A program made the position numbers and the translations under genes. Below, in pieces: positions 3,784 through 47,740 of a stretch of 64,000 nt of DNA. Numbering within the stretch: position 1 is the stretch's first letter; each line of letters begins with the position of its first letter. The stretch comes from Candidatus Eiseniibacteriota bacterium (GTDB lineage: Bacteria > Eisenbacteria > RBG-16-71-46): contig OY970342.1 of assembly GCA_963717505.1 (NCBI GenBank), positions 1,696,001 to 1,760,000 on the forward strand, given 5' to 3'. The notes beneath the pieces were generated by a model. That model was given only the letters and a program-made list of their open reading frames with translations. It ran no database searches and was not told the origin of the DNA.

Positions 3784-4452
3784 ATGACTGGTCTGCTTCG
3801 CAAGGCCACCCTTCTCGCGTGCGGCCTCGCTGTCGCTGCAACGAGCGCGATGGCGGCTGTTCCCAGCCCGGATGATTCGGATGTACCTTGCGGCATCAAC
3901 CTCGTCGGAACGACGGGTGGTGTCGCCGATTCGAAGGGCGAGTTTACGATTGTCGTTCGCGATCTCGCGCAGAACCCGATCGCCGGCAGCTCGGTGGTGA
4001 TCAGCTTCGATGCGTGCGAGATCGATATTCGCGTCTGCTCGGTCCAGCCGTTCTCCGGCGTGGTCGCTGACTGCTTGAGCGGTCCGGTCGGCGAAATCAG
4101 CGCGGTGACGGACGGTGCCGGTACGGTCGTGCTGCGCGTCGTCGGTGGCGCTCGGAACACGGGCGGCGGTGCCCCCGCCGAAGGTTTCAAGTGCGCAACG
4201 GTTTATGCCGATGGTGTGAATCTGACCCTCCCGGTCAGCGGCCTCAATGTCGGCGCCTTCGATGAGAACGGCGCGGGCGGTATCAACCCGGCTGACATCT
4301 CGGTGTGGCTGTCAGACTCCTTCGATGCGGACTTCGAGGGCCGTTCGGACTTCAACTGCTCGAACTCGGCCAACCCGGTCGACTTGGCGCTGCTGCTCAG
4401 CGCGTCGCTCGGCGGTGGATCGGCCACGAGCTGCGCCGCGTACTGCAACTGA
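3784..4452 (+). CDS. Secreted Cys-containing protein with Ig-like region and C-terminal dockerin-like duplicated Ca-binding motifs
   Basis: SD GGAGG; signal peptide ending AMA; FTIVVRD..NPIAG and TDGAG Ig-like pattern; DENGAGGINPADIS and DFNCSNSANPVDLA repeats. Confidence 0.75.
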   Translation: MTGLLRKATLLACGLAVAATSAMAAVPSPDDSDVPCGINLVGTTGGVADSKGEFTIVVRDLAQNPIAGSSVVISFDACEIDIRVCSVQPFSGVVADCLSGPVGEISAVTDGAGTVVLRVVGGARNTGGGAPAEGFKCATVYADGVNLTLPVSGLNVGAFDENGAGGINPADISVWLSDSFDADFEGRSDFNCSNSANPVDLALLLSASLGGGSATSCAAYCN

Positions 4453-4630: not shown

Positions 4631-5362
4631 ATGAGAAAGTCCATCATCCTGACGGGTGCCATGCTCGCGCTGACGGCGTCCTTTGCCTCGGCCGCCGGCA
4701 TCAACCTGGCCTGGGACGACTGCGGACTCAACGGCACGATGGTCAAGACGGACGCTTGTAACAGCAACACGGGCGCACCGAACATGTTGGTTGCGTCCTT
4801 CGTTCCGCCGTCGAATGTCGTCGAGTTCCTCGGTCTTTCCGCCCAGATCGATATCACGTCGGAATCCGCCACGCTGCCCGATTGGTGGCGTCATGGGACC
4901 GGGCAGTGCCGCAGCACGACCGGTCTGTCGACGGGTTTCGATTTCACGAGTGGTCCGTTCAGCTGCATCGACTTCTACACCGGCGCGGCGGCGGGCGGCT
5001 TCGCGTATGACGTCGGCTATGGTTCGCCGAATCGTGCCCGGCTGCGCATTCAGTGCGCCGTGCCGTTCGAGAACCGCGGTCCGGTGAGCGACGTGGACGA
5101 GCACTACGCGTTCCGCGTCAACCTGCAGCGCGCGAAGACCACCGGTACGGGCAACTGCGCCGGCTGCAACGTACTCTCGTACATCGTCCTGAACTCGATC
5201 CAGCTGTTCCAGCCGCCCGAGCAGAACAACGACCCGGACATCTTCAACCCGGGTGGTGGTTCGATCTGCGCGACGTGGCAGGCGCCTCCGGGCACCCAGT
5301 GCCCGCTGTCGACGCCGACCAGCAAGGCGAGTTGGGGTCAGATCAAGAGCCTGTATCGGTAG
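4631..5362 (+). CDS. Secreted Cys-rich protein, paralogue 1, C-terminal SWGQIKSLYR
   Basis: SD GGAGG; signal peptide; shares LAWDDC, PDWWRHG, CxGC and VLNSIQL blocks with three downstream paralogues. Confidence 0.85.
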   Translation: MRKSIILTGAMLALTASFASAAGINLAWDDCGLNGTMVKTDACNSNTGAPNMLVASFVPPSNVVEFLGLSAQIDITSESATLPDWWRHGTGQCRSTTGLSTGFDFTSGPFSCIDFYTGAAAGGFAYDVGYGSPNRARLRIQCAVPFENRGPVSDVDEHYAFRVNLQRAKTTGTGNCAGCNVLSYIVLNSIQLFQPPEQNNDPDIFNPGGGSICATWQAPPGTQCPLSTPTSKASWGQIKSLYR

Positions 5363-5419
5363 TTTCTTGGTGTGAGCAACTAGGTCCCCCTTGCAGTTTT
5401 CTTAGCCTGGAGGCTAAAC

Positions 5420-6133
5420 ATGAAGAAGAGCTTGCTTGTCGCAGGAGCGCTCCTGGTGCTTGGAGCAGCCACGGCTTCGGCCCAGCCGGGCACCATCGGT
5501 CTCGCCTGGAACGACTGTGCCGGCCCGACCACCCAGACGTTCGCCTGCAATTCGAACGCGGGCGCGCCGTTTACGCTCGTCGGTTCGTTCACGCCGTCGA
5601 CCGAGCTGCCTGAGTTCCTCGGCATCTCGGTCGACATCAACATCCAGTTCCCGAACGTGGCGACGGTTCCCGACTGGTGGCAGCATGGCGCTGGTCTGTG
5701 CCGCGGCACGACCGGCATTGCCACCAACTTCGACTTCACCAGTGGTCCGTTCACCTGCCTCGACTTCTACGTCGGCGCGGCGGCGGGCGGCTTCGCGTAT
5801 GACGTCGGCTACGGTGCCGCGAATCGTTCGCGCCTGCGCATTCAGTTGGCAGTGCCGTTCGAGAACCGTGGCTTCATCGATCAGTCGGCGGAGTGGTACG
5901 CCTTCAAGGTGAACCTGCTCCGTGCGAAGACGACGGGCACGGGCTCGTGCGTGGGTTGCATGGAAGCGACCAACGTCGTGCTCGACGAGATCCAGCTGTT
6001 CCAGCCGCCGGAGCAGAACAACGACCCGCGGATCAGTGCGCCCAGCGCAGCGGGCAACACGGCTGGCTACCAGGCGGGCCCGACCCCGGTCAGGAATGCG
6101 ACCTGGGGCCAGGTGAAGAGCCTGTACCGGTAG
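5420..6133 (+). CDS. Secreted Cys-rich protein, paralogue 2, C-terminal TWGQVKSLYR
   Basis: SD GGAGG; signal peptide; same conserved blocks. Confidence 0.85.
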   Translation: MKKSLLVAGALLVLGAATASAQPGTIGLAWNDCAGPTTQTFACNSNAGAPFTLVGSFTPSTELPEFLGISVDINIQFPNVATVPDWWQHGAGLCRGTTGIATNFDFTSGPFTCLDFYVGAAAGGFAYDVGYGAANRSRLRIQLAVPFENRGFIDQSAEWYAFKVNLLRAKTTGTGSCVGCMEATNVVLDEIQLFQPPEQNNDPRISAPSAAGNTAGYQAGPTPVRNATWGQVKSLYR

Positions 6134-6161
6134 TTTCGTTGTAGCAGAAGGGCTTCAATCT

Positions 6162-6199
6162 TCGGGGCGACCGATCCCACGCGGTCGCCCCGATTCTTT
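6162..6199 (+). terminator. Intrinsic terminator
   Basis: TCGGGGCGACCG/CGGTCGCCCCGA 12-bp stem followed by TTCTTT. Confidence 0.75.
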
Positions 6200-6306
6200 G
6201 TGGGTCTGATGCGGTGGCGATTCGGGTGAGGAACCTCGATCAGCGGGCTCGCTCGATCGCCAGTGTGCTGCTACCATCGGGCGACCGGGCGCAAGGGGAA
6301 GTATCC

Positions 6307-7059
6307 ATGCGCGCAGTCGCGCGATTTCTATTCATCGTCATCTTCATCGTGCCCGCGGGCTTCGGGCCCCCGCCGGCCCGGGCCGACGGCGACCTCCATC
6401 TCGCCTGGGACGACTGCCGGATCACCGGGGCCGACGACGCCCCCGCGGTCTGCCTGACCAACGAAGGCGCCACCGAGCTCTTCTGCGCGTTCACGCTCGA
6501 TGCCCCGATCCCGGACGTGATCGGCATCGAGGTGGTCGTCGACATTCAGCACAGCGCCGGTCAGCTGCCCGACTGGTGGCACATGCAAGGCAAGGGCGAG
6601 TGCCGCGACGGCTCGCTACTGGCCAGCGGCGACTTCTCGACGAACGGCGTCTGCGTCGATCCCTGGCTCAATCTCGGCGGCGGCCTGGTGCTCTACGATC
6701 CGGGTCTGCCGCGCGGGCAGCCCAGCCAGGCTCGCATCCACGGGACGTACGCCATTCCCTCGGATCAGGCGCGCGAACTGGTCACGGGCGAGATGTACTA
6801 CGGACTAAAGATCGTACTCCGCAACGACCGTTCGGTATTTCCGTTCGAGTGCACCGGGTGCACGCAGCCCGCGTGTCTGGTGCTCAACCAGATCACGCTG
6901 CTCCGGGTGCCGTCGGCCGATCCGCCGGAGATTCCGCTGGTCCGCCCCGGACCCGGGAACGCGAACCGAGTGACCTGGAAAGGCGGCACTGCCGCGGACT
7001 GCACCGCGGTCCCGATCCGAAAGACGACCTGGGGCCAGATCCGAAGTCTGTACCGCTGA
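6307..7059 (+). CDS. Secreted Cys-rich protein, paralogue 3 (divergent), C-terminal TWGQIRSLYR
   Basis: ATG 6307 after AAGGGGAAG; signal peptide; LAWDDC, PDWW, CTGC..C.VLN blocks. Confidence 0.8.
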   Translation: MRAVARFLFIVIFIVPAGFGPPPARADGDLHLAWDDCRITGADDAPAVCLTNEGATELFCAFTLDAPIPDVIGIEVVVDIQHSAGQLPDWWHMQGKGECRDGSLLASGDFSTNGVCVDPWLNLGGGLVLYDPGLPRGQPSQARIHGTYAIPSDQARELVTGEMYYGLKIVLRNDRSVFPFECTGCTQPACLVLNQITLLRVPSADPPEIPLVRPGPGNANRVTWKGGTAADCTAVPIRKTTWGQIRSLYR

Positions 7060-7221
7060 TCGCGGGCTGCGGTATGCTCCCGGCCCCCGCCGGGGCGCGC
7101 CCGGGCGGCCATGGCGCCGCACGGACCGCGTACGGGGGACTGCATCCACGGTCCATCAGGGAAGTCATCGGAACACGGAGTCCACCAGCGTCCCGTCCCC
7201 CGGGACAGGAGAAAACCCGCC

Positions 7222-7947
7222 ATGAAGAACCTGCTGTGCAGTCTGCTCTTGGTCGCGGTGATGCCGGTCGCGGCCCTTGCCGAGGGGATCAACCTCTCAT
7301 GGGACGATTGCGGTGCTGCCGGAACCGACACGAAGACCTGGGTCTGTGATACGAACAGCGGGGCCCCGTTCACGCTGGTCGCGTCGTTCGTCCCGCCGGA
7401 CAACGTTCCGGAGTTCCTCGGAGTCGCGTCCCAGCTCGACTTCCGGATCGGAATCTCGACCACGCCCGACTGGTGGCGTCATGGCTCGGGTCTCTGTCGC
7501 GCCACGACCGGTCTCGCCACGAATTTCGACTTCACCGGTGGGCCGTTCTCCTGCACCGACTTCTACTCAGGTCAGGCGGCCGGTGGCTTCGCCTACGACG
7601 CCGAGTATCCGGGGCCGGGCAATCGCGCGCGCCTTCGCATTCAGCTCGCGGTGCCGTTCGAGAACAAGGGCCCGGTGGCTTCGGACACCGAGTATTACGC
7701 GCTCAAGGTCAACCTGCTCCGTTCGAACACGGGCACCTGCACCGGCTGTCTGACCGAGGCGTGCATCGTGCTGAACTCGATTCAGCTCTATCAGCCGCCG
7801 GAGCAGAACTTCGACCCCGACATCTCGACCACGGTCGCCGGCGGCCGGAGTCACGTGACCTGGCAGGCGGCGTCGATCGCGAACTGCCCGCAGAGCACCG
7901 CCGCTCGGAACGCGACCTGGGGCCAGGTGAAGAGCCTCTATCGCTAG
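7222..7947 (+). CDS. Secreted Cys-rich protein, paralogue 4, C-terminal TWGQVKSLYR
   Basis: ATG 7222 after AGGAG; signal peptide MKNLL...ALA; same conserved blocks. Confidence 0.85.
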   Translation: MKNLLCSLLLVAVMPVAALAEGINLSWDDCGAAGTDTKTWVCDTNSGAPFTLVASFVPPDNVPEFLGVASQLDFRIGISTTPDWWRHGSGLCRATTGLATNFDFTGGPFSCTDFYSGQAAGGFAYDAEYPGPGNRARLRIQLAVPFENKGPVASDTEYYALKVNLLRSNTGTCTGCLTEACIVLNSIQLYQPPEQNFDPDISTTVAGGRSHVTWQAASIANCPQSTAARNATWGQVKSLYR

Positions 7948-8030: not shown

Positions 8031-9764
8031 TCAGGGAGCCCGGAAGTCGATCGCCATCACCCGCTCGGGATGGGCCTCGACCTTGTAGCGTGGCCGATGG
8101 CGGGCGATCAGCTCCTTGACCCGTCGTTCGGACTCGATGTTCCGCATCGACTCGTCCACCAGCTGTTCGACCTCGCGGAACTCGAGTTGGCGTCCGCCGT
8201 CGTAATTCAGGAGCTGGATCACACCGAAGGAGCCCTGGCGGTCCGGTCCCTCGACCACCACGTTCCCGGGCCGCATCTCCTCGAACAAGACCTTGTGGTA
8301 AGGCCCGTGCTCGTTGTGCGATCGCGTCTGGATCGACCCGCGCGTACGACCGGCGAGCGAATCCGCGCGCAGCAGGGCCGCCGGGTCGGCGCCGGCCACC
8401 AACAGCTGCTTCAGTGAGTCGGCCTCGGCCCGGGTGCTGGCGACCATGGCCACGAACCGCACGGTCGGATAGGTGAAGTACCCCGCCTTGTTGTCCTCGT
8501 AATACTTGCGGCGCTGCTCGGGCGTGATCTGGACCAGAGACTCGACGGAATCGCGAAACAGGTTGGTGACCATCAGCTCCTCGCGCTTCTGATCGATCAA
8601 AGTGGCAGCCAAAGGGTCCTTGTCGATGCCGCGCTCGATGGCCAATTCCACCATGGTCGGCTCCAGGATGAGCGCGTCCACCTGGATCTTGATGGCCTCG
8701 AGCGTCTCCAGCGCCGGACGGAGCATCGGCGACATGCTGTGCAGAGAATGAACCAGGTCCTTCACCGTGACCTGTCCGCTCCGGTGACGGGCCAGGACGC
8801 GACCCTCGTCCGTGGGGCTGAAGTCGGGCAGGTTGGGGTCGATTTCGAGCACTGGAGCTTCATCCCCGGAGGTCAGCTTGACCGACTTGCGGAACTGCTC
8901 GGAGGCCCAAGTGCAGTTGGCCTCGTCGTAGTGAACGTCGAGCTCCGCGATCAGCTCCTTCTGGATCTGTCGGGTTCGAACCGCCGCGCGCTGGTTCTGG
9001 ATCTGGCCGATGATCGCCCGGCGCAACGGCTCGAGGGCCGGAGCCTTGGTCGGCCTGCGTTCCACGAGCTGGACCACCTGGTAGCCGCTCGGATCGCTGA
9101 TGACGTCGGTGATCTGGCCCGGCTTGAAGCTGAACACCTGGGCGGCAAGCATCGCATCGACCCCCATGCGCCCGCGCCAGCCGATGTCGCCGTCGCGCAC
9201 CCGATCCTCGGCCGTCGAGAAGCGTCGAACCGCGACGCTCCACGCGATCTTGCGCGCGACCAGGTCACGCCGCACGCGTTCCGCCGTCGCCCGGTCGGCG
9301 AACTGGATGCGCTTGAGTCGGACTTCCCACTGGAACTGCTCGTAGGTTTCCTGAATGTCCTGTTCGGTGATGTGGATCGAGTCGATGACCATGCGCTGGT
9401 AGAGGACGTTGGAGATCACGCGGTTCGAGTAGTCGCGCAGTTCCGAACGCTGGGCGAAATCGAGCGGTGCGTTGACCTCGTAGGCCAGGAGTGCCAGGAC
9501 TTCCTTGTTGATCATGGTGTTGAGGAAGGTGACGCGCCCCAGGCTGTCCGGGCGCGGGCGGGTCGGCGCGTCGGAGTCGAAGAAGGCCTGCATGAACCGT
9601 TCGGCGCGAATGACGCGGGTTTCGACCCGTGCCATCACCGTGGAGTCGGGCAGCGGCTTGGACTGGGCCGCTCCGGCGACTACCGGCAGGATCGAAAGGG
9701 AGAGCCAGAGCGAGACGGCGAACATCGTCGGGCTCGGCGGGAGAGGGCCATGCACATGGGGCAT
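8031..9764 (-). CDS. Periplasmic SurA/PrsA-like peptidylprolyl isomerase with two PpiC-type modules
   Basis: Signal-like N-terminus; S.AED...GDIGW, PGQITDVI...GYQVVQLVE; second module YYEDNK..YF..VRF. Confidence 0.8.
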   Translation of the reverse strand: MPHVHGPLPPSPTMFAVSLWLSLSILPVVAGAAQSKPLPDSTVMARVETRVIRAERFMQAFFDSDAPTRPRPDSLGRVTFLNTMINKEVLALLAYEVNAPLDFAQRSELRDYSNRVISNVLYQRMVIDSIHITEQDIQETYEQFQWEVRLKRIQFADRATAERVRRDLVARKIAWSVAVRRFSTAEDRVRDGDIGWRGRMGVDAMLAAQVFSFKPGQITDVISDPSGYQVVQLVERRPTKAPALEPLRRAIIGQIQNQRAAVRTRQIQKELIAELDVHYDEANCTWASEQFRKSVKLTSGDEAPVLEIDPNLPDFSPTDEGRVLARHRSGQVTVKDLVHSLHSMSPMLRPALETLEAIKIQVDALILEPTMVELAIERGIDKDPLAATLIDQKREELMVTNLFRDSVESLVQITPEQRRKYYEDNKAGYFTYPTVRFVAMVASTRAEADSLKQLLVAGADPAALLRADSLAGRTRGSIQTRSHNEHGPYHKVLFEEMRPGNVVVEGPDRQGSFGVIQLLNYDGGRQLEFREVEQLVDESMRNIESERRVKELIARHRPRYKVEAHPERVMAIDFRAP

Positions 9765-9950
9765 GTTCGGAGTCTCCGGGGGCGCTTCCGCGCCGGTAGT
9801 GGGGGTCGCACGCCATCGTCTCGGAACCTGATCGGCCCCGGGTTCGAAGGCTCGGAGTGCGTTCCGGGAAGCAGTCGAAAGGGCCGTTGAGTCTAATAAG
9901 GACGCTTGTCGCAGGTCAACGGCGGCTTGTGCGACTCCCCGGGTCCATGG

Positions 9951-11294
9951 TCAAGGCTCGGTCATTTCCACGAGTACTGCGTCGTTGCTGCGCACGCGCA
10001 CTCGTTTTCGCTCGCGCTCGATCAGCGCACGGAGCCGACCGGCGACCTGATCCTCGTGCCAGGCCCGGCGCACCTCGGGGCGGACCTCGTCGAGCGGCCG
10101 CACGCGGGCCGGGAGAACCGCCTGGACTCGGGTGACCCGCCAGCCGCCGGCCACCGAATCGGGTCCGATCACGGCTCCGGGCCCGGAGCGACGAGCACCT
10201 TCGAACAGGGCGCTGTCGCTCTCCGCGGAGATCTCGATCTCGTAGCGTGCACCTTGCCGGCGCCCGCGCGCCGCCAGGCTTTCGGCGTAAGCGGCGTTTG
10301 CGAGCTCGAGCGCCAGCTTCGTCGCCTCGCGGCGGCCCGGAAGCGTCAACGTGATCACCTGGAGACGAACCGGCAGCGTCCACGAAGCCGAGTGAGTTCG
10401 ATGGAAGTGCTCGAGCGCGCTCGCGTCGGGTTCCGGGATCGGATCGTAGACTTCTCGTTCCATCAGGTGACGTACCGCGATCAGCTCGCGCTCCCGTTCG
10501 AGGGCCGCCTGGAATTCGGGAGTGCGATCGATCCCCGATCGGGTGGCCTCGAGCCGCAGCCAGCGCTCGAACAGACCGTTGTCGACCAGGTTGCGCACCT
10601 GATCGGCCTCGGTGACCCGCGGACGGTAGACCGGCTGGAGGCTGGCGTAGTGGTCGACCAGGTCGCCGACTGTAAAGTTGCCGGCGGCAGCCGTCGTCGC
10701 GAGCGATTTCGCTCGCTCCTCGGTCGTGACCTCGGGGACCGCGCTGAGGGCCCGCATCTGGGCCGCGAGCGAGGAGTCCGACGAAGGTCGCGGCAAAGCC
10801 GCGAAGGCGGCGGCCATGCGTTGGAGCTGCGCCTCGTCGTAACGAGGCGCGAGGGACTGGATCGCGCGTTCCCGGGCGGCGATGCCGACGGTACCGGCGT
10901 CGGCCGCGGAATCCCCGTCTGCGGCCAGAGCGCCTCGGGCGGCCGCCAGGGCCGACTCCAGAGCGGGACGGAGCAGCATGCGATCCCGGGCCGCGGCGAA
11001 GTAGGCGCTGTCCTCCGCGGTCCAGGCCACGGGCTCGCGGGTCGCCGCCGTGGCAATCAGCTCACGGTCGACCAGGGCTTCGAGAAACCCCCGGGCCTCT
11101 TCCGGGGTAGGCACCGATGCCGAGGCCCCGGGGTGGGTTTCGGACCAGGCCCTTTGGAACGACGACACGGTGACGGCCCGCTCCCCGACGGTCGCCAGGA
11201 CCGAGTCTGGGAGGCTGGCCGCTCCGGCGGCAGCGCCCGGGGGCAGGACGAGCACCAGGGCCAGTCCTGCCGCCGAAACCTTAGAGTTCCCCAT
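9951..11294 (-). CDS. Second SurA/PrsA-like foldase (degenerate PpiC)
   Basis: Start at ATG 11294 (MGNSKVSAAGLALV..); VLATVGERAVT, FLEALVDRELI, RPLDEVRPEV SurA-like motifs; the longer track ORF is a shadow of porU. Confidence 0.7.
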   Translation of the reverse strand: MGNSKVSAAGLALVLVLPPGAAAGAASLPDSVLATVGERAVTVSSFQRAWSETHPGASASVPTPEEARGFLEALVDRELIATAATREPVAWTAEDSAYFAAARDRMLLRPALESALAAARGALAADGDSAADAGTVGIAARERAIQSLAPRYDEAQLQRMAAAFAALPRPSSDSSLAAQMRALSAVPEVTTEERAKSLATTAAAGNFTVGDLVDHYASLQPVYRPRVTEADQVRNLVDNGLFERWLRLEATRSGIDRTPEFQAALERERELIAVRHLMEREVYDPIPEPDASALEHFHRTHSASWTLPVRLQVITLTLPGRREATKLALELANAAYAESLAARGRRQGARYEIEISAESDSALFEGARRSGPGAVIGPDSVAGGWRVTRVQAVLPARVRPLDEVRPEVRRAWHEDQVAGRLRALIERERKRVRVRSNDAVLVEMTEP

Positions 11295-11320
11295 ATTCCG
11301 ATGCGCTGCGCGACTCATCC

Positions 11321-11350
11321 TTGACCGCTCCGAAAGCCAGTTCCTAGACT
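11321..11350 (+). promoter_or_regulatory. Sigma70-type promoter with very short leader to the C25 gene
   Basis: TTGACC-N18-TAGACT; ATG 10 nt downstream with no SD. Confidence 0.6.
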
Positions 11351-11360
11351 CCCCTCTTCC

Positions 11361-14300
11361 ATGCCCAACTCCCGTTTCGGCATTTCCGCCGTCCTGCTTG
11401 CGCTGGGCGCTTTTCCCGCGCTCCTGAACGCCAGCCCGGTACAGGTCCTCCAGTCCGACGCCCAGGGCGTCACGCTGCGCTGGGAGCTGCCGGAGGCTCG
11501 GAACGTAGCCGGGCCCGACGGCCGGATCACGATCGACGCGCGCCTCGACGCTCATTTGCGCGAGCCCGGCAGGCCCAGCCTGCCGTTCGTTTCGGCGACG
11601 ATCGCCCTGCCCCCGGGCGCACGTCCCGTGGCGCGGTTGGCGGAAAGCTCGCCAGAGGTGGTGTACGACGGCGTGCGAGTTGCCGTCAATGGACGCTCGG
11701 TGCTCCGCGAGAACCCGAACGACGAGGGATTCGTGCCGGCGATCGAGGCGGTGGAGCCGGTCCGGGATGGACTCTGGCCGGTGGAGGAAGTGGCACTCGG
11801 CGATCCCTTCAACGTTCGCCGGCAGCGCCTGGTGGCGGTGCGCGTCTACCCTTACCGCTACGACGAATTGGCGGCGCGCCTGGTGGAACGGCGGAGCATC
11901 ACGGTGCGCGTGGACTTCGTGGGTGCTCGCCTCACCGAGGGCGTGACCTCGCAGGATCGACATTGGGAGCCGGTGCTCAGGAACCTGGTCGTGAATTTCG
12001 AGCAGGCGCGGGCGTGGTTCGAGCGCGCCACCCCGGCTCGCCGCATCGACCCCGAGCAGCTGAGCGGCCCGGCGACCGGGCGCGCGGCGAGCGGCCGGCT
12101 GGGCGCTCAACGGGTGGGCGCTCCGAGCGCCGAGCCGAACGCCGTGGTCGCGTTCGACGAAAGCTATCCCGAAGTCCGACTGCAGACCGACACCACCGGC
12201 GTCTACGGATTCGTGTTCGACGATCTGGAAGCCAGCGGATACCCGGCGGGCGTGCCCGTGTCCGAAGTCAGCGTCCATCGCCACGAGTTCGTCGAGGGCG
12301 CGAACCCCGCCTACGTCACCATCGAGCTGCCGATCGAAGTGGATGACTGGAACGGCAACGGCACCTTCGACTCGGGGGACGCGATCCATTGCTGGGTGCT
12401 GAGCTGGGCCGACCGGTCGAAGGCGAGTTACGCCCAGCGCTACTGGGGCGTCGGCGAGGCGCTGTACGCCACCCGGATCCGGGACCGGCCCGGTTTGCGA
12501 CTGCCGAGTCGCTCCGGTTGGCACGGCCTCACGCTGACCCCGTTGGCTTCGTATCCGTTCCTCCAGCGGTTCGAACGGGAGAACTACTATTTCCCGACGC
12601 CGCCCGACACCAACTTCGATACGTTTCACTGGAACGAGCTGCTGCAGTTTGCGCGACCCGAATCCACGACGTTCGAGGTCAACCACCTCGACACCTCGCG
12701 CAGCGTGACCTTCTCGGTCACCTGGAACGGCCGCCGCAACCTGATCCGTTCGGCGTGGGCGCATGTGCGCAACGGCCGCCGCGAGATCACCTCGATCGCC
12801 GACTCGGTGCGCTGGTTCGGCCTGGCCGAGATCACGCGTAGCGCGACGCTCAACGGCTCGGCGCTGACCGAAGGGCCGACCAATGTGTTCCGCACCTGGG
12901 GCAAGAACAGCGACCTGGACCTGTTCGCCAATTGCGCCCTCAACCGCTTCGACGTCGTCTACTGGCGCGCCTTCCGGGCACTCGGCCGGAACCTGACCTG
13001 CAACAGCGGATCGACGTTGGGTTTCTTCGAGATCCAGGGCGCGGGCTTCCCGACCAACGCCATTCGGGTCTACGACGTCACCGACTCGCTCAACCCGGTG
13101 CGCCTGGTCATCGACCCAGCGCGCATCACGTTCGACGGTTCGCGGTATACCGTGGCCTTCCAGGACTCGAGCGGCGGCGAGCGCCGACGCTACGTGGCGT
13201 ACGACGTGCCCAAGATCCTGCCGGTCGAGCGCATGGCGGCGGTGACGCGCCGCAATCTGGCGGGCGGCGCGCCGGCCAGCTACCTGCTGGTGGCGCCCGA
13301 GGAATTCCTGGGCGTCGTCCAGCCGCTGGTCGATCTCCGAACCTCGCAGGGGCTCGAGGTGCGGGTGGCGCCGACCCAGTCGATCTACGACGAGTTCAAC
13401 GGCGGCCGGAAGTCGTCGTACGCGCTCAAGCGCTTCTTCCGCTACGCGTACGACAACTGGAATGCCGAGTTCGTAATGCTATTGGGCGACGGCAGCGAGG
13501 ATCCCCAGCGTCTCCTCGGGCGGGACCCGATCTTCTTCCCGGACGGCAATGCAGGACCGGACTGGGTCCCGGCGCAGAAGATCATGGGCCCGGTGCCGGC
13601 CAACGACCTGCGCGAGGCGATCCCGAGCGATACCTGGCTCGTGAACTTCTACGGCTCGGTCCCCACCGACAGCTCGAGCCTGCCGAGCATGTTCGTCGGC
13701 CGGATTCCCACCTACGACGTGACCGCCCTCCAGGCGGTGATCCAGAAGATCGTGGACTACGAGGCCATCGATCCGGACGCTCCGTGGCGGCGGAAGGCGC
13801 TCCTGCTCGCCGACGACCGGTACTCGTCGACCAGCTTCTTCGGCGGCGGCACCACCACCACCACTTACTGCAAGAAGGACTACGAAGACGTCTTCAACAC
13901 GCTCAGCGAGCGGGTACGCGAAATCATCCACGACGAGGCCGGCCTCAAGTTGATGGACGTCGAGGTGTTCGACGCTCAGTACTACATGGCCGGGTTCCGA
14001 ACCTACTTCGACGCGACGTACGACACCTGCCGCGGGGTACCGACCCAGAGCCACGCCCGGAACTGGGCTGATGCCCAGGCGTACGGCCATGCGTTCGTCA
14101 GTCCGCTGGTCCTCGCGCGTCTCAATGCCGGTGTGCTGTGGTGGAACTACCAGGGCCACGCCAACCAGTACGTGATCGCTCACGAGAACCTGTACGTCAA
14201 TGGCACCAGCTTCGACGACCGCAACCTGCTGACCAACGTCGACCGGCCGTTCCTGTTCAGCGGATTCTCGTGCCATCCGAACGGGTTCGCCGCCGCCGAG

Positions 14301-15611
14301 GAGCTCGAGGGCAACAAGGGCCCGTCCTTCGGCGAGGACCTGGTCATGCTGTCGGACCGAGGCGCGATCGCGTCGTGGGCATCCTCGGGCTACGAGATCC
14401 TGCCGTCCCAGTTCGCGACCGAGCACATCAACACCCGCTTCGCGCGCTCGCTGACCGCCGATCCGCCGCGCGACCCCACGCTCGGCGCCAACGGCGCGCG
14501 GGTCGTCCTCGGCGAGGCGATCGCGCAGGCGCTGCTCCAGAACTTCGCGGTCGAGAGCGGGACCGAGAAGACCGTCGGGATCTCCTACCTTTTGCTCGGG
14601 GATCCCGCGACGCGCTTCTCGATCGGAGCGCCACAGATCCTGGTCACCGCCAACGGCGACACGGTGACCCACGACCAGCCGGTGCGGCTGGTGACTGGGG
14701 GCGACACGCTGCGCATCGAGGCCGAGCTGGTGTCCAACGTCCAGCTCACCACGCTGACCTTCGAGTATCAGGACGCGTTCGGTACGCGCACGATTCCCAC
14801 GGCCGACTACACCGTGACGCCCGCGTTCCCGGACACCGGCGCCGGGAGCACCGGTGCCCGTCGTTTCCACCTGGTCTATCGGACGTCGCTGGCGTCGGGA
14901 TCGTACCGCTACATCCTGCGCACCACCGATCGCAATGGGCTGCCGAGCCGGTTCGACATCGTGTTCCAGCTCCAGGCCCAGCTGCGCGCCGAGGGGGCGC
15001 CGATCCGCGATGGCGATCCGGTGTCCAGCACCGCCAACCTGTCGCTGCTGTTCCTGTCGCCGATCCCGCTGACACCGGCGACCGACATCGAGCTGCGCGT
15101 GAACGGCACGCCGCAACCGTTCGCCTTCGTTCCCGCGAACAACGACACCAGCAGCCGCGAATGGCTGTTGAGCTGGACGCACCTGCCCTACGCGGCCGGC
15201 ACCTACTCGCTCGAGATCCGCCTGCAGGGCACACTGGTTGCGACCGTCACGTTCACCGTCACCGATGCGGTGAGCTTCCGCGACCTGATGGCGTTCCCCA
15301 ATCCATTCGACAACGAGTACGGCACGCGGTTCTCGTTCATGTTCGACAGCCCGGCGCCGTTCGACCTGCTGCTACGGGTGTACACGGTGTCGGGGCGGTT
15401 GATCTTCGAGCGCACCGAGCGCAGTCTGCAGCCCGGCTACCACCAGATTCCGTGGGACGGTCTCGACGCCGAGGGCGAGGAGCTGGCGAACGGGGTCTAC
15501 TTCTTCAAGCTGCTGGCGCGCAGCAGCGCCGGCTCGACCACCGAAACCGGCCGGCTGGTGAAGCTGCGCCGGCCGCGCACCGAGGAACCCGAGGAAACCG
15601 GAGCCCCATGA
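11361..15611 (+). CDS. PorU-like C25 (gingipain-family) cysteine peptidase with propeptide and FlgD/T9SS-type CTD
   Basis: Signal peptide; G.PSLP propeptide; IYDEFNGG, LLGDG, VGRIP; catalytic NYQGHA and FSCH; YLLLGDPA; C-terminal FPNPF..VYTVSGRLI..WDG.D..G..LANGVYF. Confidence 0.85.
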   Translation: MPNSRFGISAVLLALGAFPALLNASPVQVLQSDAQGVTLRWELPEARNVAGPDGRITIDARLDAHLREPGRPSLPFVSATIALPPGARPVARLAESSPEVVYDGVRVAVNGRSVLRENPNDEGFVPAIEAVEPVRDGLWPVEEVALGDPFNVRRQRLVAVRVYPYRYDELAARLVERRSITVRVDFVGARLTEGVTSQDRHWEPVLRNLVVNFEQARAWFERATPARRIDPEQLSGPATGRAASGRLGAQRVGAPSAEPNAVVAFDESYPEVRLQTDTTGVYGFVFDDLEASGYPAGVPVSEVSVHRHEFVEGANPAYVTIELPIEVDDWNGNGTFDSGDAIHCWVLSWADRSKASYAQRYWGVGEALYATRIRDRPGLRLPSRSGWHGLTLTPLASYPFLQRFERENYYFPTPPDTNFDTFHWNELLQFARPESTTFEVNHLDTSRSVTFSVTWNGRRNLIRSAWAHVRNGRREITSIADSVRWFGLAEITRSATLNGSALTEGPTNVFRTWGKNSDLDLFANCALNRFDVVYWRAFRALGRNLTCNSGSTLGFFEIQGAGFPTNAIRVYDVTDSLNPVRLVIDPARITFDGSRYTVAFQDSSGGERRRYVAYDVPKILPVERMAAVTRRNLAGGAPASYLLVAPEEFLGVVQPLVDLRTSQGLEVRVAPTQSIYDEFNGGRKSSYALKRFFRYAYDNWNAEFVMLLGDGSEDPQRLLGRDPIFFPDGNAGPDWVPAQKIMGPVPANDLREAIPSDTWLVNFYGSVPTDSSSLPSMFVGRIPTYDVTALQAVIQKIVDYEAIDPDAPWRRKALLLADDRYSSTSFFGGGTTTTTYCKKDYEDVFNTLSERVREIIHDEAGLKLMDVEVFDAQYYMAGFRTYFDATYDTCRGVPTQSHARNWADAQAYGHAFVSPLVLARLNAGVLWWNYQGHANQYVIAHENLYVNGTSFDDRNLLTNVDRPFLFSGFSCHPNGFAAAEELEGNKGPSFGEDLVMLSDRGAIASWASSGYEILPSQFATEHINTRFARSLTADPPRDPTLGANGARVVLGEAIAQALLQNFAVESGTEKTVGISYLLLGDPATRFSIGAPQILVTANGDTVTHDQPVRLVTGGDTLRIEAELVSNVQLTTLTFEYQDAFGTRTIPTADYTVTPAFPDTGAGSTGARRFHLVYRTSLASGSYRYILRTTDRNGLPSRFDIVFQLQAQLRAEGAPIRDGDPVSSTANLSLLFLSPIPLTPATDIELRVNGTPQPFAFVPANNDTSSREWLLSWTHLPYAAGTYSLEIRLQGTLVATVTFTVTDAVSFRDLMAFPNPFDNEYGTRFSFMFDSPAPFDLLLRVYTVSGRLIFERTERSLQPGYHQIPWDGLDAEGEELANGVYFFKLLARSSAGSTTETGRLVKLRRPRTEEPEETGAP

Positions 15612-41838: not shown

Positions 41839-42829
41839 GAAAGCGCTCGTCGGGCTCGCGCTCCCCGTCGCGATGCTGATCACGTCACCGCCAGCGCATG
41901 CGCAGTTCTCGCTCGGCGAGCAACGCGCCGGCACCTCGTCCGGCACGTTCCTCAAGATCGGCGTCGGGGCGCGCGCCACCGGGTTCGGCGAATCGTTCGT
42001 GGCGGTGGCCAACGACCCGACCGCGATCTACTGGAACCCGGCCGGCCTGGCGTCGATGCAGCGCCAGGAAGTCTCGCTCAGCCATATCTCGTGGCCGGGC
42101 GACATCAATTTCGAGCACGTGTCCTACGTGTTGCCGGTCCAGCGCCTCGGGGGTTCGCTCGCGTTCCAACTCGGCGCGCTGAGCACCGAGATCGAGGAGA
42201 CCACCGAGTTCCAGCCGTTCGGCACCGGGCGGTCGTTCTTCTTCACCGACATCGTGGCCGGTGCCGCCTACGCGCGACGTTGGACCGACAAGCTGCTGGT
42301 CGGCGCCGGGCTCAAGTACCTGCGGGAGGACCTGGGTTCCGACGTTGGCGGACCGGTGACCGACGCGTTCCTGTTCGATCTCGGCTCCATCTACTACCTC
42401 GGCTACGGCAGCGTGCGGATCGCGGTCGCGCTGACCAACTTCGGTCCCCAGCTCCAACCGAGCGGCAACTTCGTGTCGCCGGTCAGCGGCGAGGTGCGCA
42501 GCTACGACGGCTTCGACCCGCCGATGGTGTTCCGCTACGGGGTCGCGTTCGAGCCGGTCGAGTCGGTGGAGCAGCGCCTGACCACGTCGATCGAGTTCGA
42601 CCAGCCGGCCGACAACGCGCTGCTGATGAAGGCGGGCGCCGAGTGGACCTGGCATCGCCAGTTCGCGCTGCGCACCGGCTACAACTTCGGCGCCGACGAC
42701 CTCCAGTACTCGGCCGGCGCCGGCGTGCACGTCGCGATGGGGCAGACCCAGGCGGACGTCGACTATGCCTACTCCCATGCTCGGTTCCTCGAGTCCGTGC
42801 ATCGCGTCACGTTGGGGCTTCGATTCTGA
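41828..42829 (+). CDS. PorV/PorQ-family outer-membrane beta-barrel
   Basis: FLKIGVGARATGFG..FVA.A.D..A.YWNPAGLA; LRTGY; terminal F. Confidence 0.88.
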   Translation: MTSRKALVGLALPVAMLITSPPAHAQFSLGEQRAGTSSGTFLKIGVGARATGFGESFVAVANDPTAIYWNPAGLASMQRQEVSLSHISWPGDINFEHVSYVLPVQRLGGSLAFQLGALSTEIEETTEFQPFGTGRSFFFTDIVAGAAYARRWTDKLLVGAGLKYLREDLGSDVGGPVTDAFLFDLGSIYYLGYGSVRIAVALTNFGPQLQPSGNFVSPVSGEVRSYDGFDPPMVFRYGVAFEPVESVEQRLTTSIEFDQPADNALLMKAGAEWTWHRQFALRTGYNFGADDLQYSAGAGVHVAMGQTQADVDYAYSHARFLESVHRVTLGLRF

Positions 42830-47541: not shown

Positions 47542-47740
47542 CATGACGGTCTAAACTCGTTTGCTGCGGGGCTCCTGACGCTCTGCTAGCATCGTGGCGG
47601 TTCCGAAAACTCGAAGCCCGGTAACTCAAGCCGGGGCAGCTGGGAATGTCGGTCCACGCCCCCAAGGACCTCGCTCCGTTCCCACGCCCGCCGCGACGAA
47701 CCCGGATCGCCGAACCGAACACATCGGAAGGGAAACCATC

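What the first reader, a model, noticed from the sequence alone, without database searches (positions are those of the whole stretch)
4631..7947. Four tandem secreted paralogues ending in a conserved (S/T)WGQ(I/V)(K/R)SLYR-COOH motif: candidate short sorting signal
Seen: C-termini TPTSKASWGQIKSLYR, TPVRNATWGQVKSLYR, VPIRKTTWGQIRSLYR and TAARNATWGQVKSLYR, each directly before the stop. The motif persists in the divergent third paralogue. All four have Sec signals and conserved Cys pairs. The tail is too short and polar for a TM anchor (unlike PEP-CTERM or LPXTG) and far shorter than the classical CTDs on other proteins in this window. Inference: it is a distinct amphipathic-helix export or anchoring signal, with the T/V-P-type linker as a possible cleavage site. 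It could be handled by T9SS-related machinery such as the neighbouring PorU-like protease.
Basis: partly seen in the sequence, partly recalled or inferred. Interest (0 to 1): 0.8.

Follow-up and report, generated by a model that had tools for sequence, protein, structure and literature searches.

The report
Short C-terminal sorting tag, Eisenbacteria
Four neighbouring secreted proteins end in a 20-residue tail that turns out to be a portable address label used by many unrelated exported proteins across an uncultured bacterial phylum, standing where a much larger type IX secretion domain normally sits; no database or paper found describes it and its reader is unknown.

Summary
Observation confirmed. 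The four ORFs (4631-7947, + strand) end in ...[ST]WGQ[IV][KR]SLYR-stop, as reported. The tail is not a family feature. In this 4.16 Mb Candidatus Eisenbacteria genome, 26 ORFs in 12 BLAST-unrelated clusters end in a ~20-residue module (often Cys, then T-P, x4, [ST]-W-G-x-[VIL]-[KR]-x-x-[YWF]-[RHK]-COOH). 27 of 30 core-motif hits lie within 1 residue of a stop (0.03 expected). 24 of 26 carriers pass a signal-peptide heuristic (background 152 of 400). Selection acts on the protein, not the DNA. The tag occurs across the phylum sample. Passengers are surface-type modules (choice-of-anchor V, NHL, lamin-tail, ice-binding-like); the four paralogues themselves are cohesin-like beta-sandwiches. In this genome, and in 47-67% identical homologues, the same passengers carry either this tail or a classical T9SS C-terminal domain. 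AlphaFold leaves the tail outside the fold in two unrelated carriers. No Pfam or NCBIfam model and no paper found describes it. The machinery is unidentified: both PorU paralogues are universal, no neighbour recurs, and the cohesin-like domain is not a general receptor. Best reading: a minimal sorting/anchoring tag, probably T9SS-linked. This scan has flagged the same tag before on other genomes (e.g. e1-3107520, e1-5115776, e1-2882621).

The parts
4631..5362 (+). Paralogue 1: signal peptide, cohesin-like disulfide-rich beta-sandwich (res ~21-220), linker, C-terminal tag
   Evidence: ORF. AF2 pLDDT 85.4, sandwich >89. Cohesin modules are the top structural hits: 2vo8 Z 10.2, rmsd 3.4, 131 aligned. 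No Pfam/NCBIfam hit.
5300..5359 (+). Tag module of paralogue 1 (Cys224 to Arg243; C-P-L-S-T-P-x4-S-W-G-Q-I-K-S-L-Y-R)
   Evidence: Coordinates. Tail HMM E 4.9e-9, 0 residues from the stop. pLDDT falls to 65/54/48, with only a short helix at 235-242.
5420..6133 (+). Paralogue 2 (237 aa); tag module at 6071-6130
6307..7059 (+). Paralogue 3, the divergent one (250 aa from Met at 6307); tag module at 6997-7056
   Evidence: 29-33% identical to the others but keeps the tail
7222..7947 (+). Paralogue 4 (241 aa from Met at 7222); tag module at 7885-7944
3784..4452 (+). 222-aa secreted Cys-rich protein without the tag; conserved neighbour of this family
   Evidence: 8 further homologous ORFs in the genome. 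Homologues lie next to tail-family genes in L036 and L096.
8031..9764 (-). SurA-like periplasmic PPIC-type peptidyl-prolyl isomerase (context)
   Evidence: PF13145 2.2e-13, PF00639 3.6e-8
9951..11318 (-). Second PPIC-type PPIase with a signal peptide (context); replaces my earlier false + strand gene call
   Evidence: PF13145 1.1e-7
11361..15611 (+). Divergent PorU-like C25 peptidase with its own T9SS-type CTD (candidate machinery, not shown to be specific)
   Evidence: PF01364 1.4e-56, PF13860. NF033707 186 bits, below the 420 cut-off. Found in 148 of 151 genomes.
41828..42829 (+). PorV/PorQ-family outer-membrane barrel, the best PorV match in the genome (candidate shuttle, untested)
   Evidence: NF033709 177 bits, cut-off 90. 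More than 2000 homologues; the best 120 are 66-89% identical.
47594..49837 (+). Protein with a classical T9SS type A CTD, for contrast with the short tag
   Evidence: TIGR04183 23.5 bits (cut-off 23), PF13860

Best explanation
The four genes encode Sec-exported, disulfide-rich, cohesin-like beta-sandwich modules. Their shared end is one instance of a portable ~20-residue tag that must sit at the very C-terminus: often a Cys at -11 to -9, T-P at -7/-6, then [ST]-W-G-x-[VIL]-[KR]-x-x-[YWF]-[RHK]-COOH. The tag is carried by 26 proteins of 12 unrelated families in this genome, and by about 1 to 50 proteins per genome across Candidatus Eisenbacteria. It stands where a type IX secretion C-terminal domain (CTD) stands in sister proteins. 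Proposed mechanism: after Sec export and folding in the periplasm, the flexible tail with its free carboxylate is read by an envelope receptor. The most probable reader is part of the T9SS (the SprA translocon or one of the ~11 PorV/PorQ-family shuttle barrels). On this reading the tail is a minimal substitute for the 70-100-residue CTD. Shown here: portability, strict terminal position, export signals, protein-level selection, position outside the fold, interchange with the CTD. Inferred: surface destination, the T9SS as reader, any cleavage at the T-P linker. I put about 0.85 on 'sorting/anchoring tag' in general and about 0.45-0.5 on the T9SS route; the confidence given here is for the full statement including the T9SS route.
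For: Portability and position: the tail HMM finds 26 ORFs at E<=4e-5, all 0-1 residues from the stop, and no strong internal hit among 35,966 ORFs. 27 of 30 core-motif hits are terminal against 0.034 expected. The carriers form 12 BLAST-unrelated clusters once the tail is removed. Export: 24 of 26 carriers pass a strict signal-peptide heuristic, against 152 of 400 background ORFs and 93 of 120 CTD proteins. Protein-level selection: codon-position identity is 0.61/0.64/0.46, the 60 nt downstream are at 0.28, and the near-invariant Gly uses all four codons. Passengers are surface-type modules. In this genome: choice-of-anchor V (3 carriers), NHL/ScyF-like, ice-binding-like, lamin-tail. In 103 carriers from other genomes, 24 have Pfam hits: LTD 11, NHL 6, CHRD 2, and CBM20, PPC, CarboxypepD_reg, phosphoesterase and Omp28 once each. 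NCBIfam names show related passengers elsewhere carry PEP-CTERM (NF035926) or MYXO-CTERM (NF041894) anchors. Interchange with the CTD: in this genome the paralogues' domain recurs (up to 68% identity) in 10 large CTD-ending proteins, and the NHL and choice-of-anchor-V carriers each have 3 CTD-ending paralogues. Of 22 homologues of the choice-of-anchor-V carrier, 8 end in the tail and 6 in a CTD, attached at the same column. No ORF has both signals (0 of 26 against 206). Outside the fold: AF2 models of two unrelated carriers. Distribution: 41 of 41 relatives; 125 of 151 in the phylum sample; all 5 apparently negative f10 genomes have 1-3 tails with a broader profile. T9SS present: SprA 226 bits, two PorU paralogues, ~11 PorV/PorQ-family barrels, ~206 CTD cargo. 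Shared carboxy-terminus: [hydrophobic]-Arg-COOH in 3.8% of 1,231 background ORFs, 33.5% of CTD proteins and 76.9% of tail carriers. Literature (passages read): the last 22 residues of Hbp35 were sufficient for T9SS secretion and attachment of GFP, and natural short CTDs of 40-55 aa exist (PMC11969387). Removing two C-terminal residues of RgpB traps it in the periplasm (PMC11285876). Specialised shuttles read different CTD types (PMC12618676 abstract).
Against: There is no sequence or profile similarity between the tail and this genome's CTDs (HHalign probability 0.04-0.13%). No CTD model hits the tails even at E<=10. The tail lacks the CTD motifs B and D (GxY), and AF2 draws a helix where a CTD has beta-strands. 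Neither PorU paralogue tracks tail abundance: 148 of 151 and 150 of 151 genomes, and 30 of 32 and 32 of 32 in the tail-poor family f10. No non-cargo gene recurs beside tail genes in 26 neighbourhoods of this genome, about 80 short external loci and 18 loci from 12 distant genomes. The GldL and GldM motor models found nothing in this genome, but the controls were also silent, so this is inconclusive. No localisation, cleavage or expression data exist for any carrier.
Confidence: 0.48

Rival explanations
1. The tag is a sorting or anchoring signal for separate, still unknown machinery, not the T9SS: a new pathway with its own receptor or processing enzyme, analogous in logic to sortase or exosortase systems but without a membrane-spanning segment.
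For: There is no detectable similarity to the CTD. The motif is distinct and well conserved, with an invariant Trp and a semi-conserved upstream Cys (50-56% at -11 to -9, against 2.4% background). That recalls the Cys-containing signatures of the MYXO-CTERM-type signals (abstract of 10.1101/2023.06.07.544157). The tag and the CTD are mutually exclusive and partition by size: median 241 aa against ~800 aa. T9SS sortase paralogues do not track tag abundance.
Against: No candidate enzyme or receptor emerged from the neighbourhood analyses. All known small sorting signals of that kind need a transmembrane helix, which is absent here. The close tail/CTD swaps are most simply explained by a shared destination and possibly a shared route.
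Confidence: 0.25
2. The tail is a docking or retention peptide and not an export signal. It binds non-covalently to a conserved surface or periplasmic component (a scaffold protein, LPS or a CTD-bearing carrier), so that small proteins are displayed on, or hitch-hike with, T9SS cargo.
For: The tail is a flexible appendage that AF2 models as a short helix with W, +3 and +7 on one face, typical of short linear binding motifs. The paralogues' own domain is cohesin-like (13 chains at Z>=8 are all cohesin-type modules) and is repeated in giant CTD-anchored proteins, so scaffold-type assemblies are plausible in this organism.
Against: The one receptor I could test fails. The cohesin-like domain was found in 60 of 151 genomes and is almost confined to family f1 (56 of 59; 3 of 91 elsewhere), while the tag is phylum-wide. 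A docking peptide would still need a route across the outer membrane. No other conserved partner was identified.
Confidence: 0.12
3. The tail is a short amphipathic helix that anchors the protein peripherally to a membrane leaflet (inner-membrane outer face or outer-membrane inner face), as recalled for the C-terminal helices of some penicillin-binding proteins.
For: A helix is predicted in 2 of 2 models. Trp, Tyr, Lys and Arg are typical interfacial residues.
Against: Only 8-9 residues form the helix. The invariant Trp-Gly, the conserved T-P and the strict need for the extreme C-terminus point to specific protein recognition, not generic lipid binding. The passengers are of extracellular or surface type and swap with a surface-export domain.
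Confidence: 0.08
4. It is not a signal at all: a family-specific structural element, a chance motif, or a repeated DNA element at gene 3' ends.
For: None remains. Before testing, the four tandem paralogues alone could not exclude it.
Against: 12 unrelated families carry it. 27 of 30 hits are terminal against 0.034 expected. Codon positions 1 and 2 are more conserved than position 3, and downstream DNA is at random-level identity. The tail lies outside the fold in the models.
Confidence: 0.02

Closest known systems
T9SS type A C-terminal domain (TIGR04183 / PF18962; here in its FlgD_ig-like PF13860 form)
   Same: Sits at the extreme C-terminus of Sec-exported, surface-type cargo. Carried by the same passenger families in the same genome and in close homologues. 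Both end preferentially in hydrophobic-Arg-COOH. Co-occurs with SprA, PorU and PorV-family genes.
   Different: About 20 residues against 70-100. No 7-stranded beta-sandwich. No HMM or profile similarity. No motif B or GxY motif D. Found on small proteins (median 241 aa against ~800 aa).
Short CTDs of Prevotella intermedia, and the 22-residue minimal signal of P. gingivalis Hbp35 (Ye et al. 2025, PMC11969387; passages read)
   Same: They show that a T9SS signal can be pared down (40-55 aa, three strands). They also show that the last 22 residues can be sufficient for secretion and attachment of a reporter, and that a Pro/Thr-containing site precedes the signal.
   Different: Those signals keep the canonical motifs B, D and E and are recognisable by CTD HMMs; the tail here is not. 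They occur in Bacteroidota, not Eisenbacteria. The 22-residue case is an engineered truncation, whereas this is a natural, phylum-wide form half the length of the shortest natural CTD.
Small tripartite C-terminal sorting domains (LPXTG/sortase, PEP-CTERM/exosortase, MYXO-CTERM/myxosortase, GlyGly-CTERM/rhombosortase; Haft 2023 preprint, abstract read)
   Same: A short C-terminal signature on many unrelated exported proteins, including 'choice-of-anchor' passengers. It has a semi-conserved Cys just upstream, like the Cys-containing signals, and basic residues at the end.
   Different: No hydrophobic transmembrane segment follows the motif: the protein ends 8 residues after the Trp. An intramembrane or membrane-bound sorting enzyme of those kinds therefore has nothing to hold.
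Type B CTDs with dedicated PorP/SprF shuttles (PMC12618676, abstract read)
   Same: A precedent that different C-terminal signals are read by different members of an outer-membrane shuttle family. This genome has ~11 PorV/PorQ-family barrels.
   Different: Type B CTDs are folded domains with five motifs and are often gene-linked to their shuttle. No tail gene here is adjacent to a barrel gene; the nearest is 34 kb away, by my comparison of the coordinates.
Cohesin modules of cellulosomes and of C. perfringens glycoside hydrolases (for the passenger domain only)
   Same: Fold-level resemblance: 2vo8 Z 10.2 (rmsd 3.4 A, 131 of 135 residues), 2w1n Z 9.5, 1ohz Z 8.5; all 13 chains at Z>=8 are cohesin-type modules. 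The domain also occurs as repeats inside giant surface proteins.
   Different: 4-9% sequence identity in the top three structural hits and no Pfam cohesin hit. The domain is ~200 aa with insertions and four probable disulfides. No dockerin partner is known, and the domain is confined to one family of the phylum.

Membership tests
T9SS type A CTD (TIGR04183/PF18962/PF13860-like) | Folded ~70-100-residue, 7-stranded Ig-like beta-sandwich at the C-terminus | tested here: not met
   The conserved module is ~20 residues. AF2 shows a linker plus an 8-residue helix after the passenger's last strand in two carriers. The definition is taken from PMC10994853 passages.
T9SS type A CTD (TIGR04183/PF18962/PF13860-like) | Matches the curated CTD models / conserved motifs B, D (GxY) and E | tested here: not met
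   No NCBIfam or Pfam hit on 11 tails of 39 aa at E<=10. HHalign against 150 of this genome's CTDs gives probability <=0.13%. This genome's CTD consensus is ..PGVYFxRL...
T9SS type A CTD (TIGR04183/PF18962/PF13860-like) | Extreme C-terminal position on Sec-exported cargo in a genome that encodes the T9SS | tested here: met
   position, signal peptides; PorU x2, PorV family, SprA. GldL/GldM were not found, with silent controls (inconclusive).
T9SS type A CTD (TIGR04183/PF18962/PF13860-like) | Export depends on SprA/PorV, with cleavage by PorU | not testable with these tools
   The phylogenetic profiles of both PorU paralogues are uninformative because both are universal.
Prevotella-type short CTD | 40-55 residues, three beta-strands, motifs B/D/E retained, cleavage at PT/GI | tested here: not met
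   Length ~20, helix predicted, motifs absent. Features taken from PMC11969387 passages.
Tripartite CTERM sorting signals (LPXTG, PEP-CTERM, MYXO-CTERM, GlyGly-CTERM...) | Signature motif followed by a hydrophobic transmembrane segment and then a basic cluster | tested here: not met
   Only 8 residues follow the Trp, and they include Lys/Arg. The architecture is as stated in the abstract of 10.1101/2023.06.07.544157.
Tripartite CTERM sorting signals (LPXTG, PEP-CTERM, MYXO-CTERM, GlyGly-CTERM...) | Cognate sorting enzyme (sortase, exosortase, rhombosortase, CPBP-type myxosortase) co-occurring in the genome | not tested
   I did not search for these enzyme families. Without a transmembrane segment the question has low priority.
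Outer-membrane-protein beta-signal | C-terminal strand of a beta-barrel ending in an aromatic residue (definition recalled, not from a call) | tested here: not met
   The last residue is Arg/His/Lys in 26 of 26. The passengers are soluble sandwiches and propellers, not barrels.
Cohesin (passenger domain of the four paralogues) | Nine-stranded jelly-roll beta-sandwich of cohesin type | tested here: inconclusive
   VIA-align Z 10.2/9.5/8.5 with cohesin-type modules filling all 13 places at Z>=8. Foldseek TM is only 0.35-0.59. There is no Pfam cohesin hit. Fold-level likeness only.
Cohesin (passenger domain of the four paralogues) | Binds a dockerin module | not testable with these tools
   No dockerin-type Pfam hit on the tails. 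The domain is restricted to family f1 while the tail is phylum-wide, so the tail is not its general ligand.

The most novel reading that the evidence does not exclude
The tag is the smallest natural outer-membrane sorting signal known: a ~20-residue peptide without a transmembrane segment that by itself directs folded proteins to the cell surface. It would be read by machinery that matches no described sorting system: either a dedicated PorV-family shuttle acting in a new way, or an entirely new pathway shared by several uncultured FCB-group phyla.
Probability: 0.3. Interest if true: 0.9.

Novelty: new variant of a known kind. Interest (0 to 1): 0.74.

Why it matters
C-terminal sorting signals decide which proteins a bacterium displays on its surface. 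Every described type is either a folded domain (T9SS CTDs) or a motif followed by a membrane anchor. This tag is a third form: short, polar, with no anchor and no fold. It is nevertheless used by dozens of unrelated protein families across a widespread soil and sediment phylum, and it is interchangeable with the T9SS domain. If it is a minimal T9SS signal, it shows how little of the CTD is really needed and offers a very small natural tag for surface display. If it uses other machinery, a whole sorting pathway is undescribed.

Tried and rejected
(1) The cohesin-like domain as the tail's general receptor. A tail-free profile (A3) found it in 60 of 151 genomes (f1 56 of 59; 3 of 91 elsewhere), whereas the tail is phylum-wide. 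Rejected.
(2) Phylogenetic profiling of the window's PorU-like gene (148 of 151; f10 30 of 32) and of the canonical PorU (150 of 151; f10 32 of 32). Both are universal, so uninformative.
(3) Family f10 as a tail-negative contrast. This collapsed. A choice-of-anchor-V probe matched in 2 of 5 'negative' genomes and both proteins end in the tail. A broader profile (A4) finds 1-3 tails in 5 of 5. My first profile, trained on this genome alone, under-detects diverged tails.
(4) Recurrent neighbours of tail genes. I examined 26 neighbourhoods of this genome plus the short external loci, then 18 loci from 12 distant genomes. Only CTD cargo, one cargo-specific neighbour and generic kinases/regulators recur.
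(5) The tail as a CTD remnant: HHalign probability <=0.13%.
(6) Complex prediction of the window's PorV-family barrel (residues 26-333) with the last 44 residues of paralogue 1. The tool returned 'no answer' (score 0.00, mark 0.32), which is neither for nor against. Only one of ~11 barrels was tried.
(7) The search for related loci with the tail alignment failed because no stretch was conserved enough; replaced by a DNA pattern scan.
(8) A '472-aa unknown gene' at 9906-11324 (+) from my crude gene caller is an artefact. The real gene is a PPIase on the minus strand.
(9) The DNA-repeat rival is excluded.
(10) GldL and GldM models found no match, but no control genome matched either, so inconclusive.
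(11) Spread outside the phylum. Genomes behind hits labelled Gemmatimonadota, Gammaproteobacteria and Phycisphaera have 1 match each and Polyangiaceae 2, even with the broader profile, so these may be mis-binned contigs. One 'Fibrobacteraceae' bin has 9. The 'Limnocylindria' and 'Saccharimonadaceae' bins give the same hit coordinates as Eisenbacteria family f1 genomes. The tool does not tell the phylum of these bins, so I could not verify the earlier notes' claim of six phyla.
(12) Literature. Seven full-text searches listed no paper describing this tail. Supplements were not consulted.

Full report
1. THE OBSERVATION. Each has an n/h/c-type signal sequence. None matches Pfam or NCBIfam. Paralogues 1, 2 and 4 are 55-62% identical to one another; the third is 29-33% identical to them yet keeps the tail.

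2. THE TAIL IS NOT A FAMILY FEATURE. The window lies in a single-contig genome of 4,162,540 bases and 67.7% G+C. A regular expression over all six frames showed many more ORFs with the same ending. A 22-residue HMM built from 26 such ends was searched against all 35,966 stop-to-stop ORFs of at least 60 aa. It found 26 ORFs at E<=4.2e-5, every one with the match 0-1 residues from the stop. The next hit is at E=0.015, and there is no strong internal match. The seeds were chosen as terminal, so the informative part is the absence of internal hits. As a seed-free measure, the bare core pattern occurs 30 times in 6.39 million residues, 27 times at a stop and 3 times internally, where 0.034 terminal hits are expected. 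With the last 24 residues removed, the 26 carriers fall into 12 clusters with no BLASTP link at 1e-3. The finding's family has five members, the fifth at genome position 2.56 Mb.

3. A PROTEIN-LEVEL SIGNAL ON EXPORTED PROTEINS. Among the 26 tails, mean pairwise identity is 0.61 and 0.64 at codon positions 1 and 2 but 0.46 at position 3. The near-invariant Gly uses GGT, GGG, GGA and GGC (5, 6, 5 and 9 times). The 60 nt after the stop are at 0.28 identity. So this is not a DNA repeat. A strict signal-peptide heuristic passes 24 of 26 carriers, 152 of 400 likely-coding background ORFs of similar length, and 93 of 120 CTD proteins used as positive control. The heuristic is crude and picks the best start codon, so only the contrast counts.

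4. ANATOMY OF THE MODULE. In the unbiased set of this genome: Trp 100%, Gly 96%, Ser/Thr before the Trp 100%, Val/Leu/Ile at +3 100%, Lys/Arg at +4 100%, Tyr/Trp/Phe at +7 100%, Arg/His/Lys at +8 100%; at most one residue follows. Upstream, Thr at -7 is 80% and Pro at -6 is 85%. A Cys lies within -17 to -8 in 13 of 26 tails, peaking at -11 to -9 against a 2.4% background. In 120 external tails, 76 have a Cys in that window. W, +3 and +7 fall on one face of a helix (read directly from the sequence).

5. WHAT THE TAG IS ATTACHED TO.
- This genome. Choice-of-anchor V domain NF041895 (three carriers, one also matching the MYXO-CTERM-anchored family NF041894). NHL propellers whose best NCBIfam match is the PEP-CTERM protein ScyF (NF035926). 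An ice-binding-like domain (PF11999, 2.5e-62). A lamin-tail domain. The rest have no family.
- Other genomes. Of 103 carriers, 24 have a Pfam match at 1e-5: lamin-tail 11, NHL 6, CHRD 2, and CBM20, PPC, CarboxypepD_reg, phosphoesterase and Omp28 once each. 79 have none.
- The four paralogues. AF2 with 98 sequences gives a confident beta-sandwich for residues 21-220 (mean pLDDT 85.4). Confidence falls to 65, 54 and 48 over the last 23 residues, where only a helix at 235-242 is drawn. A search of 48,161 PDB representatives puts cohesin modules first (2vo8 Z 10.2, rmsd 3.4 A, 131 aligned; 2w1n 9.5; 1ohz 8.5), and all 13 chains at Z>=8 are cohesin-type modules. Foldseek agrees only weakly. So the four genes encode secreted cohesin-like modules. 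This is a likeness of fold, not of family.
- A second, unrelated carrier. For the choice-of-anchor-V carrier, modelled with 25 sequences, AF2 again gives domain, linker and a helix over W182-F189, at pLDDT about 80.

6. INTERCHANGE WITH THE T9SS DOMAIN.
- An iterated HMM finds about 206 ORFs in this genome ending in a classical FlgD_ig-like T9SS CTD (median ORF about 800 aa). Carriers of the short tail have a median of 241 aa. No ORF has both.
- The paralogues' domain recurs, at up to 68% identity and often several times per protein, inside 10 large CTD-ending proteins. The NHL carriers and the choice-of-anchor-V carriers each have three CTD-ending paralogues.
- Among 120 listed stand-alone homologues of paralogue 1 (193 found), 118 end in the tail, one has Ser for the Gly and one is truncated.
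- Among 22 homologues of the choice-of-anchor-V carrier (query included), 8 of about 190 aa end in the tail, and 6 of about 270 aa end in a CTD (five with PF13860 precomputed; the sixth read by eye from its end). 7 stop at an Fn3-like '...AVTDLR' and one is truncated. In the alignment, tail and CTD start at the same column after the shared last strand.

7. DISTRIBUTION.
Of the 80 loci listed with titles, 43 are titled Candidatus Eisenbacteria, 26 carry no phylum label and 11 carry other labels.
- The tail profile matches 41 of 41 relatives, with 7-53 matches each, and 125 of 151 genomes of a phylum-wide sample.
- Family f10 (small genomes) looked nearly negative (9 of 32) but is not. Two of five 'negative' genomes have a choice-of-anchor-V protein and both end in the tail. 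A broader profile finds 1-3 tails in all five.
- Two of the other-labelled bins give the same hit coordinates as Eisenbacteria f1 genomes. Two more have 23 and 7 matches. One 'Fibrobacteraceae' bin has 9 with the broader profile, and the rest have 1-2.
- One genome in these samples (G026) is unpublished.

- The window holds a PorU-like C25 peptidase with its own CTD (11361-15611; NF033707 186 bits, below the 420 cut-off) and the genome's best PorV/PorQ-family barrel (41828-42829; NF033709 177 bits).
- The canonical PorU lies at 2.957-2.961 Mb and is followed by a PorV-type barrel. About ten more PorV/PorQ-family barrels exist. SprA is present.
- Neither PorU paralogue tracks tail abundance. 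By my comparison of the rows listed, the window's copy stays 6-12 kb from the tail-gene cluster in 11 genomes of 9 genera of family f1. This could be inherited synteny.
- The cohesin-like domain is not the receptor. No non-cargo neighbour recurs. The tail shows no profile similarity to the CTD.
- One shared feature stands out: a hydrophobic-Arg carboxy-terminus in 76.9% of tail carriers and 33.5% of CTD proteins, against 3.8% of 1,231 background ORFs.

9. COMPARISON WITH WHAT IS KNOWN.
- No Pfam or NCBIfam (release 20.0) model matches 11 tails of 39 aa even at E<=10.
- Seven full-text searches listed no paper on such a tail.
- Known small sorting signals have a signature motif, a transmembrane segment and a basic cluster (abstract of 10.1101/2023.06.07.544157). 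The tail has no transmembrane segment.
- T9SS CTDs are 7-stranded sandwiches carried by PorV or by other carriers (PMC10994853 passages; PMC12618676 abstract).
- The T9SS literature nevertheless makes a very short signal plausible. P. intermedia has natural 40-55-residue, three-strand CTDs. The last 22 residues of Hbp35 were sufficient for secretion and attachment of GFP (PMC11969387 passages). Deleting two C-terminal residues of RgpB blocks export (PMC11285876 passages).
- That evidence, together with the tail/CTD swaps and the shared carboxy-terminus, is why I rank a T9SS-linked minimal signal first (about 0.45-0.5). A separate unknown pathway comes second (0.25), then a docking peptide (0.12) and a membrane-anchoring helix (0.08).

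10. EARLIER NOTES OF THIS SCAN. At least seven earlier follow-up notes on other genomes describe the same or a sister tag and also report the machinery as unknown. I used them as leads only. One led me to the short-CTD paper, which I then read. Their claim of spread into several allied phyla I could test only in part.

11. VERDICT. The interpretation as a distinct short sorting or anchoring signal is well supported by comparative evidence. The helix, the cleavage site and the PorU link remain inference. The tag is a new variant of a known kind of feature (C-terminal sorting signals), with no curated model or publication found. Its function is untested because the phylum is uncultured.

Noticed in passing
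G000 genome 2956854-2961228 (L147, L148) and 2397432-2401563: The canonical PorU is split into two overlapping ORFs (872 and 732 aa), whereas relatives have a single ORF of ~1430-1600 aa. The SprA gene matches in five pieces across several frames. Together with 86.7% marker completeness for a closed contig, this suggests indel errors in the assembly, or real pseudogenes.
   Followed up: partly
window 39049-42829; G000 1336656-1345581, 2700444-2707733, 3816124-3824523: A CarboxypepD_reg/TonB-dependent-receptor-like outer-membrane protein is paired with a PorV/PorQ-family barrel at four loci (in the window the two genes overlap by 11 nt). This recurring two-barrel unit has no function known to me.
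   Followed up: no
window 3784-4452: A 222-aa secreted, Cys-rich protein without the tag has 8 further homologous ORFs in the genome. Homologues lie next to tail-family genes in two other genomes (L036, L096), so it is a conserved companion of the cohesin-like family.
   Followed up: partly
window 8031-9764 (-) and 9951-11318 (-): Two tandem SurA-like PPIC-type isomerases with signal peptides lie between the tail-gene cluster and the divergently transcribed PorU-like gene. They may be periplasmic chaperones for this cargo.
   Followed up: partly
G000 3497108-3523984: Six consecutive genes encode giant proteins (801-2274 aa). Five of them end in a T9SS CTD, and each contains one to several copies of the cohesin-like module, giving a scaffoldin-like array. 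The module family is almost confined to one family of the phylum (56 of 59 genomes there, 3 of 91 elsewhere).
   Followed up: partly
L023 = G000 2709224-2710042 (-): A lipoprotein-like ORF (lipobox-like ...SSAGC) has a tail-like motif 17 residues before its stop (HMM E=0.015). It lies beside one of the receptor-like/PorV-like pairs. This may be chance or a decayed tag.
   Followed up: no
L034/L060 and L066 (records titled Limnocylindria and Saccharimonadaceae): These MAG records give exactly the same hit coordinates as genomes that the tool groups in Eisenbacteria family f1 (G007, G104), so the submitters' taxon labels look wrong.
   Followed up: partly
window 28082-29311 (-): A 409-aa ORF with no Pfam hit has a weak NCBIfam match to the RNA-guided endonuclease IscB (E 5e-4, 19 bits, far below the cut-off).
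   Followed up: no
tails of the 26 carriers in G000: The conserved Tyr of the tag is encoded by TAT in 16 of 23 cases, although GC3 in the tails is 0.79. This is an unexplained codon preference.
   Followed up: no
L162 = G101:C1:1704000-1723999: Three tandem ~435-aa paralogues in a distant family of the phylum end in a variant tag with one extra residue before the final Arg (...YLR-stop). So the last positions tolerate small changes.
   Followed up: no
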